Shown here piece by piece: positions 9,718-15,972 of a stretch of DNA of 58,890 nt. The position numbers were made by a program, and so were the translations under genes. The notes under the pieces were generated by a model. The model saw only the letters and a program-made list of their open reading frames with translations, made no database searches and was not told the DNA's origin. Every line of letters begins with the position of its first letter. Positions within the stretch are counted from its first letter, which is position 1. The DNA lies in the IMG/VR virus record IMGVR_UViG_2526164617_000008, one strand, 5' to 3'. Source of the DNA: a virus. Lineage: Duplodnaviria > Heunggongvirae > Uroviricota > Caudoviricetes.

Positions 9718-10010
9718 AAATGTCTCCCTGTTTTTTTATGGCTTATGCAGTTTGCCATCCATGACGGAACGATACCGTATCCGCCTGTTTAGGTGTGGGC
9801 GATTGTAACAGCACGTCAACTGATGTCCAGACGCCCTGATTTGCTGATTTGATCATAGCCTGGTAATCGCCGCCCTGTAGGCTACTTGATTCTATAGAAA
9901 CAGAAAAAGGCAAACGCAGCCTTTTCTACATTTTCAGAGTAACTCCCGCCAGTTGCGAGCAAAAAAGCCGCTACGCTTTAGCTATACGTGCTAATTCAAG
10001 AGAAGAGACC

Positions 10011-10943
10011 ATGGACAACGACAAAATTGATCAACACAGCGACGAAATTGAAGTTGAGAGCGAAGAAAAAGAGCGCGGCAAAAAAATAGAAATAGATGAA
10101 GACCGACTCCCCTCCCGGGCGATGGCAATTCATGAGCATATCCGCCAGGATGGTGAAAAAGAGCTGGAACGCGACGCAATGGCGCTACTGTGGTCAGCCA
10201 TTGCGGCGGGTCTGTCGATGGGCGCTTCGTTACTGGCAAAAGGGATATTTCATGTCGAACTGGAAGGTGTGCCGGGCAGCTTCTTACTGGAGAATCTCGG
10301 TTATACCTTTGGTTTTATTATCGTCATAATGGCCCGCCAGCAATTATTTACCGAAAACACCGTGACTGCGGTACTACCCGTCATGCAAAAACCGACAATG
10401 AGCAACGTTGGCTTACTTATGCGGTTATGGGGAGTCGTGCTGCTGGGTAATATTCTCGGGACTGGTATTGCTGCGTGGGCATTTGAATATATGCCTATCT
10501 TCAATGAAGAAACTCGCGATGCATTTGTCAAAATCGGCATGGATGTGATGAAGAACACCCCCAGCGAGATGTTTGCCAACGCGATCATTTCCGGCTGGCT
10601 GATCGCCACTATGGTATGGATGTTTCCTGCAGCAGGTGCGGCAAAGATTGTGGTGATTATATTGATGACCTGGCTTATTGCCCTAGGTGACACCACCCAT
10701 ATCGTGGTCGGTTCTGTTGAAATCCTCTATCTGGTGTTTAACGGTACGCTGCACTGGAGCGATTTCATCTGGCCCTTCGCACTACCTACTTTAGCGGGGA
10801 ACATCTGCGGCGGCACCTTTATCTTCGCGTTAATGAGTCATGCACAGATTCGTAACGACATGAGCAACAAGCGTAAAGCAGAAGCACGCCAAAAAGCAGA
10901 ACGTGCGGAAAACATTAAGAAAAATGATAAAAACCCGGCATAA
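10011..10943 (+). CDS. yfdC: Formate/nitrite transporter family inner-membrane protein YfdC
   Basis: 310 aa, multiple TM segments; conserved position between mlaA and argW. Confidence 0.85.
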   Translation: MDNDKIDQHSDEIEVESEEKERGKKIEIDEDRLPSRAMAIHEHIRQDGEKELERDAMALLWSAIAAGLSMGASLLAKGIFHVELEGVPGSFLLENLGYTFGFIIVIMARQQLFTENTVTAVLPVMQKPTMSNVGLLMRLWGVVLLGNILGTGIAAWAFEYMPIFNEETRDAFVKIGMDVMKNTPSEMFANAIISGWLIATMVWMFPAAGAAKIVVIILMTWLIALGDTTHIVVGSVEILYLVFNGTLHWSDFIWPFALPTLAGNICGGTFIFALMSHAQIRNDMSNKRKAEARQKAERAENIKKNDKNPA

Positions 10944-11018
10944 ATGGCGAGGGTTTAAGCAATCAAGCGGCAGCGTACTTACCCCGCACTCCATTAGCGG
11001 GTATACTCATGCCGCATT

Positions 11019-11093
11019 GTCCTCTTAGTTAAATGGATATAACGAGCCCCTCCTAAGGGCTAATTGCAGGTTCGATTCCTGCAGGGGACACCA
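11019..11093 (+). tRNA. argW: tRNA-Arg (anticodon CCU)
   Basis: GTCCTCTTAGTTAAATGG...CTCCTAAGGG...GGTTCGATTCCTGCAGGGGACACCA; cloverleaf with CCU anticodon and terminal CCA. Confidence 0.9.
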
Positions 11094-11254
11094 TTTATCA
11101 GTTCGCTCCCATCCGTACCAGTCCGCAAAATCCCCTGAATATCAAGCCTTCCGTATATTCACGGTTCGTCATGGTTCGCGTCAGATCGTTGACAGCCGCA
11201 CTCCATGACGGGTAAAAAGTGGATAAAATAATTTTACCCACCGGATTTTTACCC

Positions 11255-12412
11255 ATGCTCACCGTTAAGCAGATTGAAGCAGCAAAGCCGAAAGAAAAAC
11301 CATACCGCCTTCTCGATGGTAATGGCCTGTACCTTTATGTTCCTGTATCCGGGAAAAAGGTATGGCAGCTTCGCTACAAGATTGACGGTAAGGAGAAAAT
11401 CCTGACCGTCGGAAAATATCCGCTTATGACTTTGCAGGAAGCAAGGGATAAGGCATGGACTGCGAGGAAAGACATCTCGGTTGGCATCGTTCCGGTAAAG
11501 GCGAAAAAGGCTTCGTCTAACAACAATTCATTTAGTGCGATTTACAAGGAATGGTACGAGCACAAGAAGCAAGTCTGGTCAGTAGGCTATGCAACTGAAC
11601 TTGCCAAAATGTTTGATGACGACATTTTACCCATCATCGGCGGTCTTGAGATTCAGGATATTGAGCCGATGCAACTGCTGGAAGTAATCCGCAGATTTGA
11701 AGATCGCGGTGCAATGGAGCGAGCCAACAAAGCCCGCAGAAGATGCGGCGAGGTTTTTCGTTACGCTATTGTCACCGGAAGGGCTAAATATAACCCGGCA
11801 CCTGACCTTGCAGACGCCATGAAAGGATACCGCAAGAAGAACTTCCCGTTCCTTCCAGCAGACCAGATGCCTGCATTCAACAAAGCACTGGCAACATTTT
11901 CAGGAAGTATCGTATCGCTCATTGCGACCAAAGTTTTACGCTACACAGCCCTAAGAACAAAAGAGCTTCGTTCCATGCTATGGAAGAACGTCGATTTTGA
12001 AAACAGGATTATCACCATCGACGCCAGTGTGATGAAGGGACGCAAAATTCATGTGGTCCCGATGTCAGACCAGGTGGTTGAACTTCTCACTACGCTAAGC
12101 TCAATCACCAAACCAGTCTCAGAGTTTGTTTTTGCCGGGCGCAACGATAAGAAGAAGCCAATCTGCGAGAACGCGGTATTGCTTGTGATCAAACAAATCG
12201 GCTATGAAGGTCTGGAAAGCGGTCACGGATTCAGGCATGAATTCAGCACGATTATGAACGAGCACGAATGGCCTGCTGACGCTATTGAAGTGCAGCTGGC
12301 ACATGCCAACGGCGGATCTGTGCGCGGTATTTACAACCATGCTCAGTATCTCGATAAGCGCAGAGAAATGATGCAGTGGTGGGCGGATTGGCTTGATGAA
12401 AAAGTGGAGTAA
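11255..12412 (+). CDS. intS: Tyrosine integrase adjacent to argW (IntS / P4-type)
   Basis: Phage integrase N- and C-terminal features (GFRHEF...HANGG...RGIYNH..Y); start taken at MLTVKQ, alternative upstream start at 11219. Confidence 0.85.
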   Translation: MLTVKQIEAAKPKEKPYRLLDGNGLYLYVPVSGKKVWQLRYKIDGKEKILTVGKYPLMTLQEARDKAWTARKDISVGIVPVKAKKASSNNNSFSAIYKEWYEHKKQVWSVGYATELAKMFDDDILPIIGGLEIQDIEPMQLLEVIRRFEDRGAMERANKARRRCGEVFRYAIVTGRAKYNPAPDLADAMKGYRKKNFPFLPADQMPAFNKALATFSGSIVSLIATKVLRYTALRTKELRSMLWKNVDFENRIITIDASVMKGRKIHVVPMSDQVVELLTTLSSITKPVSEFVFAGRNDKKKPICENAVLLVIKQIGYEGLESGHGFRHEFSTIMNEHEWPADAIEVQLAHANGGSVRGIYNHAQYLDKRREMMQWWADWLDEKVE

Positions 12413-13115: not shown

Positions 13116-13867
13116 TCAGATTCCCTGGTGAGTAAGAATTTTACTTTCTGAACTCCTCTGAGAGTATTGACTTGGAGAAACACCAAAATAACGTCTAAAT
13201 ACATAAGTAAAGTATGAGACACTGGCATAACCACAGACCTTAGCTACTTTACTAATAGGATAACAACGAGTGCTGAGTAAATATTCAGCCATTTGCATCC
13301 TCTCATCAAGTATGATCTTACTGAATGATACCCCCTCTTCTTTCAATTTCATCTTTAGTAAACTTTCGCTGAGATATAATCTTGATGATATATCCTTAAG
13401 ACGCCATGGTGCAGATAAATCCGTATGAATAATCGTTTTAACTTTAGCCCTGTGCTTTTCAAACATCCAAACAGAAATACTCCAAATTGTTTTTCAGAAG
13501 AAAATGCAGAGAGACATGTAAAAGCAATAGACTCATCAAAAATTTCTATGTATTCAGCACAGTGATTAGCCCAACTAATTAATCCTTTAATTAAACTGAA
13601 GTCAGCAAAGTTTATTTTTAAATAAGATGGATATTCCCTACAATCAGAAATATCCCTTAAGTTATTAGCTTTCAAATAGCGACTAATAAACTCAGCGCCA
13701 AAATCCGCCACTATCACTCTTTCAGGATATGTCAGGAAAAAATCTCTAGAGCTAGAGTCGACAAGTACAGATGAACCTCTCTCCAGAAACACACTCTCTT
13801 TTCCGAAATAAACATCAAAGGACTCCAAAATCAATATAACTGAACATGTAGTTGCCATATCATCCAC
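13116..13867 (-). pseudogene. AraC-family regulator (AppY-like prophage regulator), frameshifted
   Basis: C-terminal AraC HTH (13116-13466) and N-terminal domain (13355-13867) in different frames with about 110 bp overlap; IS1 begins 7 bp upstream of the start. Confidence 0.6.
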
Positions 13868-13888
13868 CCAATTGGTAATGACTCCAAC

Positions 13889-14392
13889 TTATTGATAGTG
13901 TTTTATGTTCAGATAATGCCCGATGACTTTGTCATGCAGCTCCACCGATTTTGAGAACGACAGCGACTTCCGTCCCAGCCGTGCCAGGTGCTGCCTCAGA
14001 TTCAGGTTATGCCGCTCAATTCGCTGCGTATATCGCTTGCTGATTACGTGCAGCTTTCCCTTCAGGCGGGATTCATACAGCGGCCAGCCATCCGTCATCC
14101 ATATCACCACGTCAAAGGGTGACAGCAGGCTCATAAGACGCCCCAGCGTCGCCATAGTGCGTTCACCGAATACGTGCGCAACAACCGTCTTCCGGAGACT
14201 GTCATACGCGTAAAACAGCCAGCGCTGGCGCGATTTAGCCCCGACATAGCCCCACTGTTCGTCCATTTCCGCGCAGACGATGACGTCACTGCCCGGCTGT
14301 ATGCGCGAGGTTACCGACTGCGGCCTGAGTTTTTTAAGTGACGTAAAATCGTGTTGAGGCCAACGCCCATAATGCGTGCTGTTGCCCGGCAT
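13889..14392 (-). CDS. insB: IS1 InsB
   Basis: 167-aa frame including the A6C slippery region. Confidence 0.85.
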
Positions 14393-14586
14393 CCAACGCC
14401 ATTCATGGCCATATCAATGATTTTCTGGTGCGTACCGGGTTGAGAAGCGGTGTAAGTGAACTGCAGTTGCCATGTTTTACGGCAGTGAGAGCAGAGATAG
14501 CGCTGATGTCCGGCAGTGCTTTTGCCGTTACGCACCACCCCGTCAGTAGCTGAACAGGAGGGACAGCTGATAGAAACAGAAGCCAC
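14311..14586 (-). CDS. insA: IS1 InsA
   Basis: 91 aa, zinc-finger CPSC...CSHC, GTG start. Confidence 0.85.
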
Positions 14587-15274
14587 TGGAGCACCTCAAA
14601 AACACCATCATACACTAAATCAGTAAGTTGGCAGCATCACCAGCCTTCTTGAGGCTACCACCTGTTTTCAGGTGTCATTCAGACGTGATTTGCCCCAGAT
14701 TGGGAAAGCACGCTTTTTTCTCAGCTATCGTCCTCTTATTTTGCCGTTACATTTCTTTTTGCACTCTAATGATTAATTTACAATAATAATATCGGTAATT
14801 ATTGAGTAATAATAAATTGATTATTGCAAATGTAATTTAATTCCATCTTCGCGTTATATTCCAATCTTTAATCTCCGCATGGAACAAGTTGCATGCGTGA
14901 CTATATTAAGACAACTTATAACCACCAAAACATTTGCTTTGCAAGCAAAAACAGTGACCATTGACTCTAAGAAAATTCCGATCTATTGTTAGGGTCATCA
15001 AAGTTACTTAACAGTATTCCGAAATGAAAATACAAAGCAAGCTAATTGTCTTATTAAACATTATTATTGCATTTATATTATTTGAGCTTTTAGCTCAAAA
15101 ATTTGGTTTGAGTACATTATTTTAAAGCAAGATAAACAATATCGGGCACTCTAGTTTTTATAATTAACAATTAAACGTCCATAAAATGTTATTTACTTTT
15201 CTTCGCTATTGTCATATCTTAATATAGTGGCTTACGCCACTCTACTTTCATCACATTTTGTACGTTTATGTACT

Positions 15275-15305
15275 CGCCATGAAGCTCTTTCATGGCGATT
15301 TTTTA
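15275..15305 (+). terminator. Intrinsic terminator in ORF-free AT-rich region
   Basis: cgccatgaagctctttcatggcg followed by attttttatt. Confidence 0.45.
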
Positions 15306-15390
15306 TTCTTAATCCAAGAACATACTCCCTACCTATAGCAAAATCACTTTTTTAACAAAAGAATAACGTATTTAGGTAATCATTACGAAT

Positions 15391-15972
15391 TTACCCTATA
15401 GGTGCTACTGGCCATTCAATATCCGGTGCAGTTGATGTATCAACACGGTTCAGCAACACCCGATACTTTTTCCAGGCTTCCAGCAACAAGGTTTCTTTCT
15501 CCGTTGCGATCTCCAGATCCACAGCATCCTGAAGCGGCGCTATATGCTCACTGGCTACCTGCATCAGGCTGTTTTTTGTTTCTTCCGCCTCCCGGATCCG
15601 GAACAGTTTTTCTGCTTCCGTATCCTTCACCCAGGCTGTGCCGTTCCACTTCTGAAACTCCCCTTCCGGGGATAACCAGGTGACATTTTCCGGTAATGAG
15701 CCGAGTTCAGAAATAAATAACGCGTCGCCGGAAGCCACGTCATAAACCGTTTTACCCCGATGATCTTCAACGAGATGCCACGATGACTCATCACTGTTGA
15801 AAACAGCCACGAAACCAGCCGGAATATCTGGCGGTGCAATATCGGTACTGTTTGCAGGCAGACCTGTATGAGGCGGAATATATGCGTCACCTTCACCAAT
15901 AAATTCATTAGTTCCGGCCAGCAGGTTATAAATTTTTATGGTCCGTGCTTGTTCACTCATTCTGAATGCCAT
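15391..15972 (-). CDS. tfa: Tail fibre assembly protein Tfa
   Basis: 193 aa, lambda Tfa-like, directly downstream of stf. Confidence 0.8.

What the first reader, a model, noticed from the sequence alone, without database searches (positions are those of the whole stretch)
14642..15390. 750-bp AT-rich ORF-free region with a terminator and a candidate 34-aa hydrophobic peptide
Between IS1 copy 2 and tfa there is no ORF of 60 codons or more on either strand, yet a clean plus-strand intrinsic terminator sits at 15275-15305, implying a short transcription unit. A 34-codon ORF (15024-15125, MKIQSKLIVLLNIIIAFILFELLAQKFGLSTLFF) is reminiscent in size and hydrophobicity of type I toxin peptides, though it lacks a convincing Shine-Dalgarno.
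Basis: inference. Interest (0 to 1): 0.45.

Follow-up and report, generated by a model that had tools for sequence, protein, structure and literature searches.

The report
Unannotated prophage YncL-like small membrane protein
The AT-rich stretch behind the tail-fibre genes of this E. coli prophage holds a real, unannotated 33-codon gene related to the stress-induced membrane peptide YncL, with its own terminator; it looks like an ordinary phage add-on gene ('moron'), and nothing shows it to be a toxin-antitoxin pair.

Summary
Window 14642-15390 is 31.6% GC, has no ORF of 60 codons or more, a strong plus-strand intrinsic terminator (15274-15304) and a hydrophobic ORF at 15024-15125. The peptide is 33 aa, not 34. 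ORF-freeness is unremarkable: 71% of shuffles also lack such an ORF.

The ORF is a real gene. It is intact in all 34 distinct full-length homologous sequences examined. dN/dS is 0.04-0.09 against three lineages, and randomisation gives P = 1e-4.

Its only family match is YncL, the 31-aa E. coli stress-response inner-membrane protein. Identity is 39%, HMM E-values run from 3e-6 to 7e-5, hhalign gives 90% probability, and 0 of 20,000 shuffles score as well. It stays below NCBI's naming cut-off.

The cassette follows tfa in lambdoid prophages at several integration sites. It occurs in 827 of 5426 complete E. coli genomes and in three cultured phages. No listed E. coli genome hit shows an annotated feature over it.

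An 81-nt stem-loop, single-stranded stretch and terminator at its 3' end is more conserved than the coding sequence.

Best reading: a moron encoding a YncL paralogue. No antisense RNA gene or type I toxin family match was found.

The parts
13874..14641 (-). IS1 copy (768 bp) forming the left boundary of the finding. Relative to strain TUM9757 it replaces about 740 bp, including the upstream region of the AraC-family gene.
   Evidence: Terminal inverted repeats read; InsA/InsB ORFs; three-way alignment with IS1-free and IS1-bearing relatives.
14642..14726 (.). Segment A: an 85-bp piece shared at 93-100% identity with the ends of many other E. coli prophages. It is not part of the cassette.
   Evidence: Hits covering only query positions 1-85 in many genomes, for example O157:H7 next to NleG-type (DUF1076) genes.
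14813..15390 (+). Segment B: the conserved module that follows tfa in lambdoid prophages at several integration sites. It contains the cassette.
   Evidence: 95.7% identity downstream of tfaQ at the ydfJ (Qin) site; 93.6% and 80% in prophages next to sitABCD; also present at the att-lambda and argW/intS sites.
14961..14989 (+). Candidate promoter (inferred only): TTGACT, 17-nt spacer, TATTGT, with C at -13. It would start transcription near 14994-14997, giving a leader of about 27 nt.
   Evidence: Consensus scan, 9 of 12 matches. The number of such sites in the region is not above chance. The hexamers are partly conserved: TTAACT in one lineage and TATCGT in another.
15024..15125 (+). 33-codon gene plus stop codon for a YncL-like single-pass membrane peptide, MKIQSKLIVLLNIIIAFILFELLAQKFGLSTLF.
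   Evidence: Intact in 34 of 34 distinct sequences. dN/dS 0.04-0.09; randomisation P = 1e-4. 13 of 23 distinct substitutions fall at third codon positions. YncL HMM E-values 3e-6 to 7e-5; BLASTP 39% identity; hhalign 89.9% probability; 0 of 20,000 shuffles reach the score. Best 19-residue hydropathy window 2.54.
15226..15241 (+). Stem-loop SL1 (AGUGGC-UUAC-GCCACU), the first element of the highly conserved 3' block.
   Evidence: Fold. Two stem substitutions in relatives give G-U pairs on the plus strand but A-C mismatches on the minus strand.
15242..15273 (+). Conserved, mostly unpaired A/U-rich stretch, CUCUACUUUCAUCACAUUUUGUACGUUUAUGUAC. Its function is unknown; it could be an Hfq-binding or seed region.
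   Evidence: The 81-nt block 15225-15305 is 93.8% identical in the 78%-identity homologue, while its flanks are 67-71% identical. Only 12 sequence variants occur across 58 loci.
15274..15304 (+). Intrinsic terminator of the cassette: a 10-11-bp stem, a 3-5-nt loop and a run of six T.
   Evidence: On the minus strand the same hairpin has no T-run after it.
15391..15972 (-). tfa (tail fibre assembly), convergent with the cassette; the right boundary of the finding.
   Evidence: ORF; annotated as a tail fibre assembly protein in all related loci.

Best explanation
Window 14813-15305 is an accessory prophage cassette (a 'moron') placed just past the tail-fibre assembly gene of a lambdoid prophage.

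It is most likely transcribed on the plus strand, convergent with tfa, from a weak sigma-70/sigma-S-like promoter near 14961-14989. This promoter is inferred. The cassette encodes a 33-aa single-pass inner-membrane peptide homologous to E. coli YncL; the coding status and the homology are shown. It ends at the intrinsic terminator 15274-15304; that structure is shown.

By analogy with YncL, the peptide would insert into the inner membrane of the lysogen. When produced, it would partly dissipate membrane potential and push the cell towards a low-metabolism, stress-tolerant state. This step rests on published YncL work, not on any test here.

The terminator also keeps cassette transcripts from running antisense into the tail genes. 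The very conserved stem-loop and single-stranded stretch in front of it probably stabilises the 3' end. It may also yield a 3'-UTR-derived small RNA (inferred).
For: Coding:
- The ORF has the same length, start and stop in all 34 distinct full-length sequences drawn from 57 loci.
- Nei-Gojobori dN/dS is 0.04, 0.05 and 0.09 against three lineages.
- Against the most divergent lineage there are 18 nucleotide changes but only 5 amino-acid changes. Random placement of the same changes does this well in 0.0001 of trials.
- 13 of 23 distinct substitutions fall at third codon positions. Taken one at a time, 13 are synonymous in the ORF frame, against 8 and 2 in the other two frames.

Homology:
- YncL (NF000537) is the only NCBIfam hit for all four peptide variants, at 22.5-27.1 bits and E 2.8e-6 to 7.5e-5.
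- BLASTP gives 11 of 28 identities and 18 of 28 positives with K-12 YncL.
- hhalign gives 89.9% probability, E 1.7e-6.
- The alignment score is 60, against 20.2 +/- 4.1 for 20,000 shuffles; none reached it.

Moron features:
- GC is 24-33%, against about 51% in the tail genes.
- The cassette has its own terminator.
- It sits after tfa in prophages at four or more integration sites and in the phages mEp332, PhiR70_1 and ev099.
- It is absent from K-12 Qin, which has pinQ, ydfK and ynfT in that position.
- It is found in 827 of 5426 complete E. coli genomes, at 940 places.

Function by analogy: YncL production depolarises the membrane, condenses the nucleoid and lowers viability (PMC12542507). 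YncL is cleaved by RseP in vivo (PMC10470546). The Salmonella yncL transcript is the sigma-S-dependent STnc1110 (PMC5437024).
Against: - There is no Shine-Dalgarno sequence before the ATG, whereas K-12 yncL has AAGGTGG.
- The promoter is only a 9-of-12 consensus match. Such matches are no more frequent here than in shuffles.
- The YncL HMM score is below NCBI's 35-bit cut-off, so this is not an equivalog.
- Sequence diversity is small. There are four peptide variants, all from E. coli prophages, and no homologue turned up in the species-representative genomes.
- There are no transcript, translation or phenotype data for this locus.
- One strain keeps the 3' element without the ORF, and one frameshift variant exists. 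The gene is therefore dispensable.
Confidence: 0.7

Rival explanations
1. Type I toxin-antitoxin module. The peptide is a membrane toxin whose translation is held down by a cis- or trans-acting antisense RNA encoded in the same region.
For: - The peptide is small and hydrophobic.
- Its homologue YncL depolarises membranes and reduces viability when produced early.
- A promoter-like site on the minus strand (15215-15186) would give an RNA antisense to the 3' part of the ORF.
- A 25-nt imperfect inverted repeat (14887-14911 / 15217-15241, with a 12-nt perfect core) flanks the ORF. It would allow a 5'-3' fold-back like that of hok mRNA if transcription started upstream of 14887.
Against: - No hit to any type I toxin family in Pfam or NCBIfam at E up to 10, and none in PADLOC.
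- No terminator-like site on the minus strand in 14400-15700, and promoter-like sites are at the chance level.
- The minus-strand -35 is not conserved: ATGACA, ATTACA, ATAGCA.
- The inverted repeat is not maintained. Two of three variant lineages carry uncompensated disrupting changes.
- There is no Shine-Dalgarno sequence for a structure to hide.
- No antitoxin is mentioned for chromosomal yncL in the passages read, and I know of none (own knowledge).
Confidence: 0.1
2. The functional product is an RNA, not a peptide. The unit would be a small RNA gene, or a 3'-end-derived Hfq-type sRNA: SL1, an A/U-rich single strand, then a terminator with a U-tail. The ORF would be incidental or poorly translated.
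For: - The 81-nt 3' block is the most conserved part: 93.8% identity, against 82% for the ORF and 67-71% for the flanks, in the most divergent homologue.
- It folds strongly, z = -7.15.
- It survives alone next to tfaQ in an O169:H41 strain.
- Two stem changes are G-U-compatible only on the plus strand.
- The ORF has no Shine-Dalgarno sequence.
- The Salmonella yncL transcript was first catalogued as the sRNA STnc1110.
Against: - The codon-position bias and dN/dS of 0.04-0.09 cannot be explained by RNA-level constraint alone.
- No Rfam family matches.
- No convincing promoter lies directly upstream of SL1.
- There are no compensatory double changes, and only 12 sequence variants.
- The single-stranded stretch shows no better-than-shuffle pairing with the cassette's own start region or with K-12 yncL.
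- This reading is compatible with the best explanation as an added function rather than a replacement.
Confidence: 0.12
3. Non-functional filler. The region would be decaying AT-rich mosaic DNA at a prophage end, with a terminator that merely insulates the tail operon from read-in transcription. The ORF would be a chance open frame.
For: - ORF-free AT-rich DNA of this length is expected by chance.
- The region is a patchwork of pieces with different distributions: segment A, segment B, tfa fragments and IS1.
- PGAP shows nothing over it in any listed hit.
- The ORF is almost never called in a collection of 15 billion proteins.
Against: - Purifying selection acts on the ORF.
- The similarity to YncL is specific.
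- Substitution density in the ORF (0.225 per site) is about half that of its flanks (0.38-0.44).
- The frame is intact in every full-length copy examined.
Confidence: 0.06

Closest known systems
YncL (E. coli b4598, NCBIfam NF000537; Salmonella STM14_1932 within sRNA STnc1110)
   Same: - Size: 31 against 33 aa, both with a single hydrophobic helix.
- Shared residues: M1, S5, K/R6, V9, L10, N12, A16, L19, F20, L22, K/R26, F27, G28.
- YncL is the only family hit.
   Different: - Only 39% identity, and a score below the curated cut-off.
- Prophage b-region context rather than patD-yncL-ortT.
- No Shine-Dalgarno sequence, whereas yncL has AAGGTGG.
- A long, conserved, structured 3' UTR with no similarity to the yncL 3' end.
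- The regulation and activity of the phage copy are untested.
Type I toxins of enterobacteria (Hok, Ldr, TisB, Ibs, ShoB, DinQ, ZorO)
   Same: A short hydrophobic inner-membrane peptide. The homologue YncL lowers membrane potential when produced. The gene lies on a mobile element.
   Different: No sequence match to any of these families. No antisense RNA gene was detected. There is no Shine-Dalgarno sequence or structured leader to be regulated.
Phage morons such as lambda bor and lom, or HK97 gp15 (named from my own knowledge, not tested here)
   Same: An autonomous small unit with its own terminator and deviant base composition. It is inserted next to the tail genes of lambdoid phages and is variably present among relatives.
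   Different: The product is far smaller than known moron proteins. The promoter and expression from the prophage are not shown. Any benefit to the lysogen is unknown.
3'-UTR-derived Hfq-dependent sRNAs (for example KilS from the Rac kilR 3' UTR, which RIL-seq links to yncL; PMC8175672)
   Same: A stem-loop, an A/U-rich single strand and a terminator with a U-tail at the end of an mRNA, conserved more strongly than the coding part.
   Different: No evidence of processing, Hfq binding or targets. No Rfam family. No covariation.

Membership tests
YncL family (NCBIfam NF000537) | HMM score at or above the curated 35-bit cut-off (equivalog level) | tested here: not met
   22.5-27.1 bits for the four variants; K-12 YncL itself scores 68.6 bits.
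YncL family (NCBIfam NF000537) | Significant, composition-independent sequence similarity to YncL | tested here: met
   E 2.8e-6 to 7.5e-5, and the sole hit among 18,950 models. BLASTP E 2e-7. hhalign 89.9% probability. 0 of 20,000 shuffles reach the score.
YncL family (NCBIfam NF000537) | Peptide of about 30 aa with one transmembrane helix | tested here: met
   33 aa; GRAVY 1.51; best 19-residue Kyte-Doolittle window 2.54.
YncL family (NCBIfam NF000537) | Chromosomal position between patD and ortT | tested here: not met
   This gene lies after tfa in prophages.
YncL family (NCBIfam NF000537) | Membrane depolarisation and nucleoid condensation on production; stress-induced expression | not testable with these tools
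   Known for YncL from PMC12542507; needs an experiment for this peptide.
Type I toxin-antitoxin system | Small hydrophobic toxin ORF | tested here: met
Type I toxin-antitoxin system | Adjacent or overlapping antisense RNA gene with its own promoter and terminator | tested here: inconclusive
   No minus-strand terminator-like site; promoter-like sites at chance level; no Rfam hit. The candidate -35 is not conserved. Transcript data are needed to exclude it.
Type I toxin-antitoxin system | Membership of a described toxin family (Hok, Ldr, TisB, Ibs, ShoB, DinQ, Zor and others) | tested here: not met
   No Pfam, NCBIfam or PADLOC hit other than YncL at E up to 10.
Type I toxin-antitoxin system | Toxicity relieved by the cognate RNA | not testable with these tools
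   Needs an experiment.
Phage moron | Discrete unit at a junction of core phage genes, variably present among related phages | tested here: met
   It follows tfa at att-lambda, Qin, sit-linked and argW sites and in three phages. It is absent from K-12 Qin.
Phage moron | Base composition unlike the flanking phage genes | tested here: met
   24-33% GC against about 51%.
Phage moron | Own terminator | tested here: met
Phage moron | Own promoter, active in the lysogen | tested here: inconclusive
   Only a 9-of-12 consensus match at 14961-14989, which is not above chance.
Hfq-type 3'-UTR sRNA | Terminator hairpin with a U-tail, preceded by an A/U-rich single strand and an upstream stem-loop | tested here: met
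Hfq-type 3'-UTR sRNA | Stable processed species, Hfq binding, defined targets | not testable with these tools
   No transcript data are available. Pairing with two obvious candidate targets is no better than with shuffles.

The most novel reading that the evidence does not exclude
The cassette may be a dual-function prophage unit. Its mRNA would encode a YncL-like depolarising peptide that the prophage uses to alter host physiology, for example dormancy, stress tolerance, exclusion of superinfecting phage, or lysis timing. Its very conserved 81-nt 3' end would be released as an Hfq-dependent small RNA acting on host genes. This unit would sit in 15% of complete E. coli genomes while showing no annotated feature in any listed hit.
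Probability: 0.15. Interest if true: 0.65.

Novelty: new member of a known kind. Interest (0 to 1): 0.4.

Why it matters
YncL is one of the few small E. coli membrane proteins with a recently described activity: sublethal depolarisation and nucleoid condensation.

A selected, phage-borne paralogue carried by about one in seven complete E. coli genomes suggests that phages have taken up this kind of peptide. It is often present in two to four copies. It sits on culturable phages (mEp332, PhiR70_1, ev099), which gives a tractable system for asking what such peptides do for a lysogen.

It also shows a gap in annotation. The gene scores below NCBI's family cut-off, no listed E. coli genome hit has a feature over it, and it is nearly absent from protein databases.

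Tried and rejected
Searches that could not run or found nothing useful:
- tblastn of the peptide against phages and plasmids found nothing, even in phages that hold 99%-identical DNA. The low-complexity filter probably masks the peptide, so this is uninformative.
- Pfam, PHROGs and PADLOC gave no hit.
- Rfam at E up to 1 gave nothing in the region.
- phmmer against 1.84 billion representative proteins found only the peptide itself and one frameshift variant.
- A degenerate-motif scan of 185,579 species-representative genomes returned only 15 chance hits in unrelated taxa. I therefore found no homologue outside E. coli prophages.
- A family-wide YncL motif scan of viral contigs added only a mis-binned chromosomal yncL (L104) and one weak candidate (L103, 14 bits).
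- A full-text search for the peptide string found no paper.

Ideas tested and dropped:
- The 25-nt inverted repeat flanking the ORF could be a hok-like fold-back or the ends of a mobile unit. I rejected it as a constrained pairing, because variant lineages carry uncompensated mismatches.
- The in-ORF hairpin 15081-15099, flagged as terminator-like, is broken in the divergent homologue, so it is not a conserved structure.
- Pairing of the conserved single-stranded stretch with the cassette's own start region, or with K-12 yncL, is no better than with shuffles.
- A sigma-54-like TGGAAC...TTGCAT motif at 14880-14895 has the wrong spacing (read).
- I considered that the AraC-family neighbour controls the cassette. 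This is unlikely, because the cassette occurs without that gene at the Qin and sit-linked sites.

Full report
**What is there.** The finding lies between an IS1 copy (13874-14641) and the stop codon of tfa (15391-15972, minus strand). The 749 bp are 31.6% GC, and local windows fall to 24-33%, against about 51% in the tail genes. No ORF of 60 aa or more exists on either strand. That is what AT-rich DNA gives by chance: 709 of 1000 shuffles show the same. The plus-strand terminator is real. Its stem is 15274-15298, with 11 pairs, followed by six T. The last 85 nt fold at -27.1 kcal/mol, z = -7.15.

**Context.** In this window the neighbours to the left are mlaA, a yfdC-like gene, an integrase, an IS2 fragment and a frameshifted GadX/YdeO-like AraC-family gene. 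To the right lie tfa, a 1029-aa side tail fibre gene and a Lom/OmpX-like outer-membrane gene, as in the related loci. Related loci show the same stretch in the 'b region' of lambdoid prophages at att-lambda next to ybhB and bioA. It is also in the cultured phages mEp332, PhiR70_1 and ev099, between tfa and the AraC gene, which is followed by attP and int.

**The region is a mosaic.**
- Positions 14642-14726 are shared with the ends of many unrelated prophages.
- Positions 14813-15390 form a module that follows tfa at several integration sites. Identity is 95.7% at the Qin/ydfJ site, and 93.6% and 80% next to sitABCD. It is also present at argW/intS.
- IS1 has removed about 740 bp here relative to strain TUM9757. 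The module itself is 100% identical to TUM9757.

**The ORF is a gene.** Pattern scans of viral contigs, together with the annotated loci, gave 57 copies and 36 distinct sequences. All 34 full-length distinct sequences keep the ATG, the 33 codons and the stop. There are only four peptide variants.
- Of 23 distinct substitutions in the ORF, 13 fall at third codon positions and 2 at second positions. Taken singly, 13 are synonymous in the ORF frame, against 8 and 2 in the other two frames. About 7 would be expected from the observed transition/transversion mix.
- Nei-Gojobori dN/dS is 0.04, 0.05 and 0.09 against three lineages.
- Against the most divergent lineage (78% identity overall, dS about 1.0) there are 18 nucleotide changes but only 5 amino-acid changes. 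The same changes placed at random do that well in 0.0001 of trials.
- Substitution density in the ORF is 0.225 per site, against 0.38-0.44 in the flanks.
- Indels occur in the flanks but not inside the frame.

**What it encodes.** In NCBIfam the only hit at E up to 10, for each of the four variants, is YncL (NF000537). Scores are 22.5-27.1 bits and E-values 2.8e-6 to 7.5e-5, below the curated 35 bits.
- BLASTP with K-12 YncL (MNVSSRTVVLINFFAAVGLFTLISMRFGWFI) gives 11 of 28 identities and 18 of 28 positives. These include the polar positions S5, K/R6, N12 and K/R26-F27-G28.
- Profile-profile comparison gives 89.9% probability, E 1.7e-6.
- The similarity is not compositional. The alignment score is 60, against 20.2 +/- 4.1 for 20,000 shuffles with a maximum of 54.
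- Pfam, PHROGs and PADLOC give nothing.
- The peptide is strongly hydrophobic: GRAVY 1.51, best 19-residue window 2.54.

It is therefore a YncL homologue (paralogue), not an equivalog.

**What is known about YncL.** It is a 31-aa inner-membrane protein. Its levels rise on heat shock and in minimal medium. Its production depolarises the membrane, condenses the nucleoid and reduces viability (PMC12542507). RseP cleaves it in vivo (PMC10470546). In Salmonella its transcript is the sigma-S-dependent 'sRNA' STnc1110 (PMC5437024).

**Distribution and annotation.** The 311-nt unit is found in 827 of 5426 complete E. coli genomes, at 940 places and up to four per genome, always on chromosomes. No listed hit shows an annotated feature over it.
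- In a collection of 15 billion proteins, the exact peptide forms a cluster of two unnamed members. A frameshift variant, P0002, is the only other relative found.
- K-12 Qin lacks the cassette and has ynfT, ydfK and pinQ in that position.
- A degenerate-motif scan of species-representative genomes gave only chance hits.

**The 3' end.** Positions 15225-15305 comprise stem-loop SL1, a mostly unpaired A/U-rich stretch of about 32 nt, and the terminator.
- Against the most divergent homologue this block is 93.8% identical. The ORF is 82% identical and the flanking non-coding DNA 67-71%.
- Part of this conservation is owed to how the sequences were found. One scan was seeded at 15240-15264, and megablast needs a 28-nt exact word.
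- Only 12 sequence variants occur across 58 loci.
- There are no compensatory double changes. Two stem substitutions make G-U pairs on the plus strand and A-C mismatches on the minus strand. That is only two events, roughly a one-in-four outcome.
- The block occurs in the same number of genomes as the cassette, 827.
- In one O169:H41 strain it remains next to tfaQ without the ORF. The breakpoint lies exactly at the 5' edge of SL1.
- On the minus strand the hairpins are not followed by a T-run, so the block does not terminate the tail operon.

The architecture resembles an Hfq-type sRNA or a 3'-UTR-derived sRNA. No Rfam family matches. No clear promoter lies just upstream of SL1. Pairing with the cassette's own start region or with yncL is at shuffle level.

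**Type I toxin-antitoxin reading.** Size, hydrophobicity and the depolarising activity of YncL speak for it. Against it:
- There is no match to any type I toxin family.
- There is no minus-strand terminator, and promoter-like sites are at chance level (5 found, 3.5 +/- 1.6 expected).
- The candidate antisense -35 is not conserved.
- The flanking inverted repeat is not maintained.
- There is no Shine-Dalgarno sequence to sequester.

Without transcript data this reading cannot be excluded, but nothing positive supports it.

**Conclusion.** The best-supported account is a moron: a small, AT-rich, self-terminated cassette after tfa that encodes a YncL-like membrane peptide.
- Shown: coding constraint, homology, terminator structure, mosaic distribution.
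- Inferred: the promoter at 14961-14989 (TTGACT, 17-nt spacer, TATTGT, with C at -13), translation without a Shine-Dalgarno sequence, and membrane depolarisation by analogy.
- Unknown: the benefit to phage or lysogen, and the role of the conserved 3' block.

This is a new, unannotated member of a known small-protein family in a familiar kind of phage accessory unit. It is moderately interesting and readily testable on cultured phages.

Noticed in passing
window 13116-13867 (minus strand): The GadX/YdeO-like AraC-family regulator is broken here. It reads as two ORFs of 170 and 116 aa, against an intact 247-aa gene in TUM9757. IS1 abuts its start codon and removes its upstream region.
   Followed up: partly
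L001 5829-5892 (strain TUM9757; the segment missing from the window at the IS1 site): The IS1-free relative carries about 540 bp that the window lacks. These include what looks like the 3' 60 nt of a tRNA-Ser gene (serU type, identified from memory) on the minus strand. ARAGORN finds no complete tRNA there. It may be a relic attachment site of another integrative element.
   Followed up: partly
window 14642-14726: This 85-bp segment recurs at 93-100% identity at the ends of many other E. coli prophages, for example beside NleG-type (DUF1076) effector genes near uspF in O157:H7. It may be a recombination linker. Its function is unknown.
   Followed up: partly
window 15431-15629 (minus strand, inside tfa): There is a full-length match to Rfam family IS009 (218.5 bits, E 9e-55) within the tfa coding sequence.
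   Followed up: no
L005 about 4880-4990; L007 3892-3991; L101 2918-3000: At the Qin and sit-linked sites the cassette is preceded by a decayed copy of the 3' end of another tfa gene, in the same orientation. The module is thus bracketed by tfa ends. This suggests repeated recombination within tfa.
   Followed up: partly
L101 3001-3083 (E. coli O169:H41 2014EL-1345-2): The SL1-plus-terminator block sits alone next to tfaQ without the YncL-like ORF. The joint lies exactly at the 5' edge of SL1.
   Followed up: yes
window 14887-14911 and 15217-15241: An imperfect 25-nt inverted repeat (76% complementary, with a 12-nt perfect core ACTATATTAAGA / TCTTAATATAGT) brackets the ORF. Both arms lie in conserved blocks, but variant lineages do not keep the pairing. 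It remains unexplained.
   Followed up: partly
L103 about 3446-3544 (IMGVR_UViG_2225789004_000194): An AT-rich, unrelated viral contig holds a 32-aa ORF, MKKAITLILMNIISALFLFFLIIQNFGFWGHE. It fits the YncL motif used for the scan and hits the YncL HMM weakly (14 bits, E 0.03). It could be a distant phage-borne relative or a chance match.
   Followed up: partly
window 8962-12412 and IS1-type ORFs at 13889-14392, 44093-44596, 51677-52180, 55780-56283: The tail end of the lambdoid prophage is joined, through an IS2 fragment, to a yfdC-like gene and an integrase, as in E. coli F404, where the integrase is intS next to argW. The order tail genes, b region, integrase matches the vegetative phage map rather than a normal prophage. 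Four 167-aa ORFs, of which only the one inside the finding's IS1 copy was checked as InsB, occur in 59 kb. This suggests IS-driven rearrangement.
   Followed up: no
protein P0002 (two Logan contigs): A rare frameshift allele of the peptide, MKIQSKLIVLLNIIIAFILFELLAQKIWFEYIILKQDKQYRAL, diverges after residue K26.
   Followed up: no
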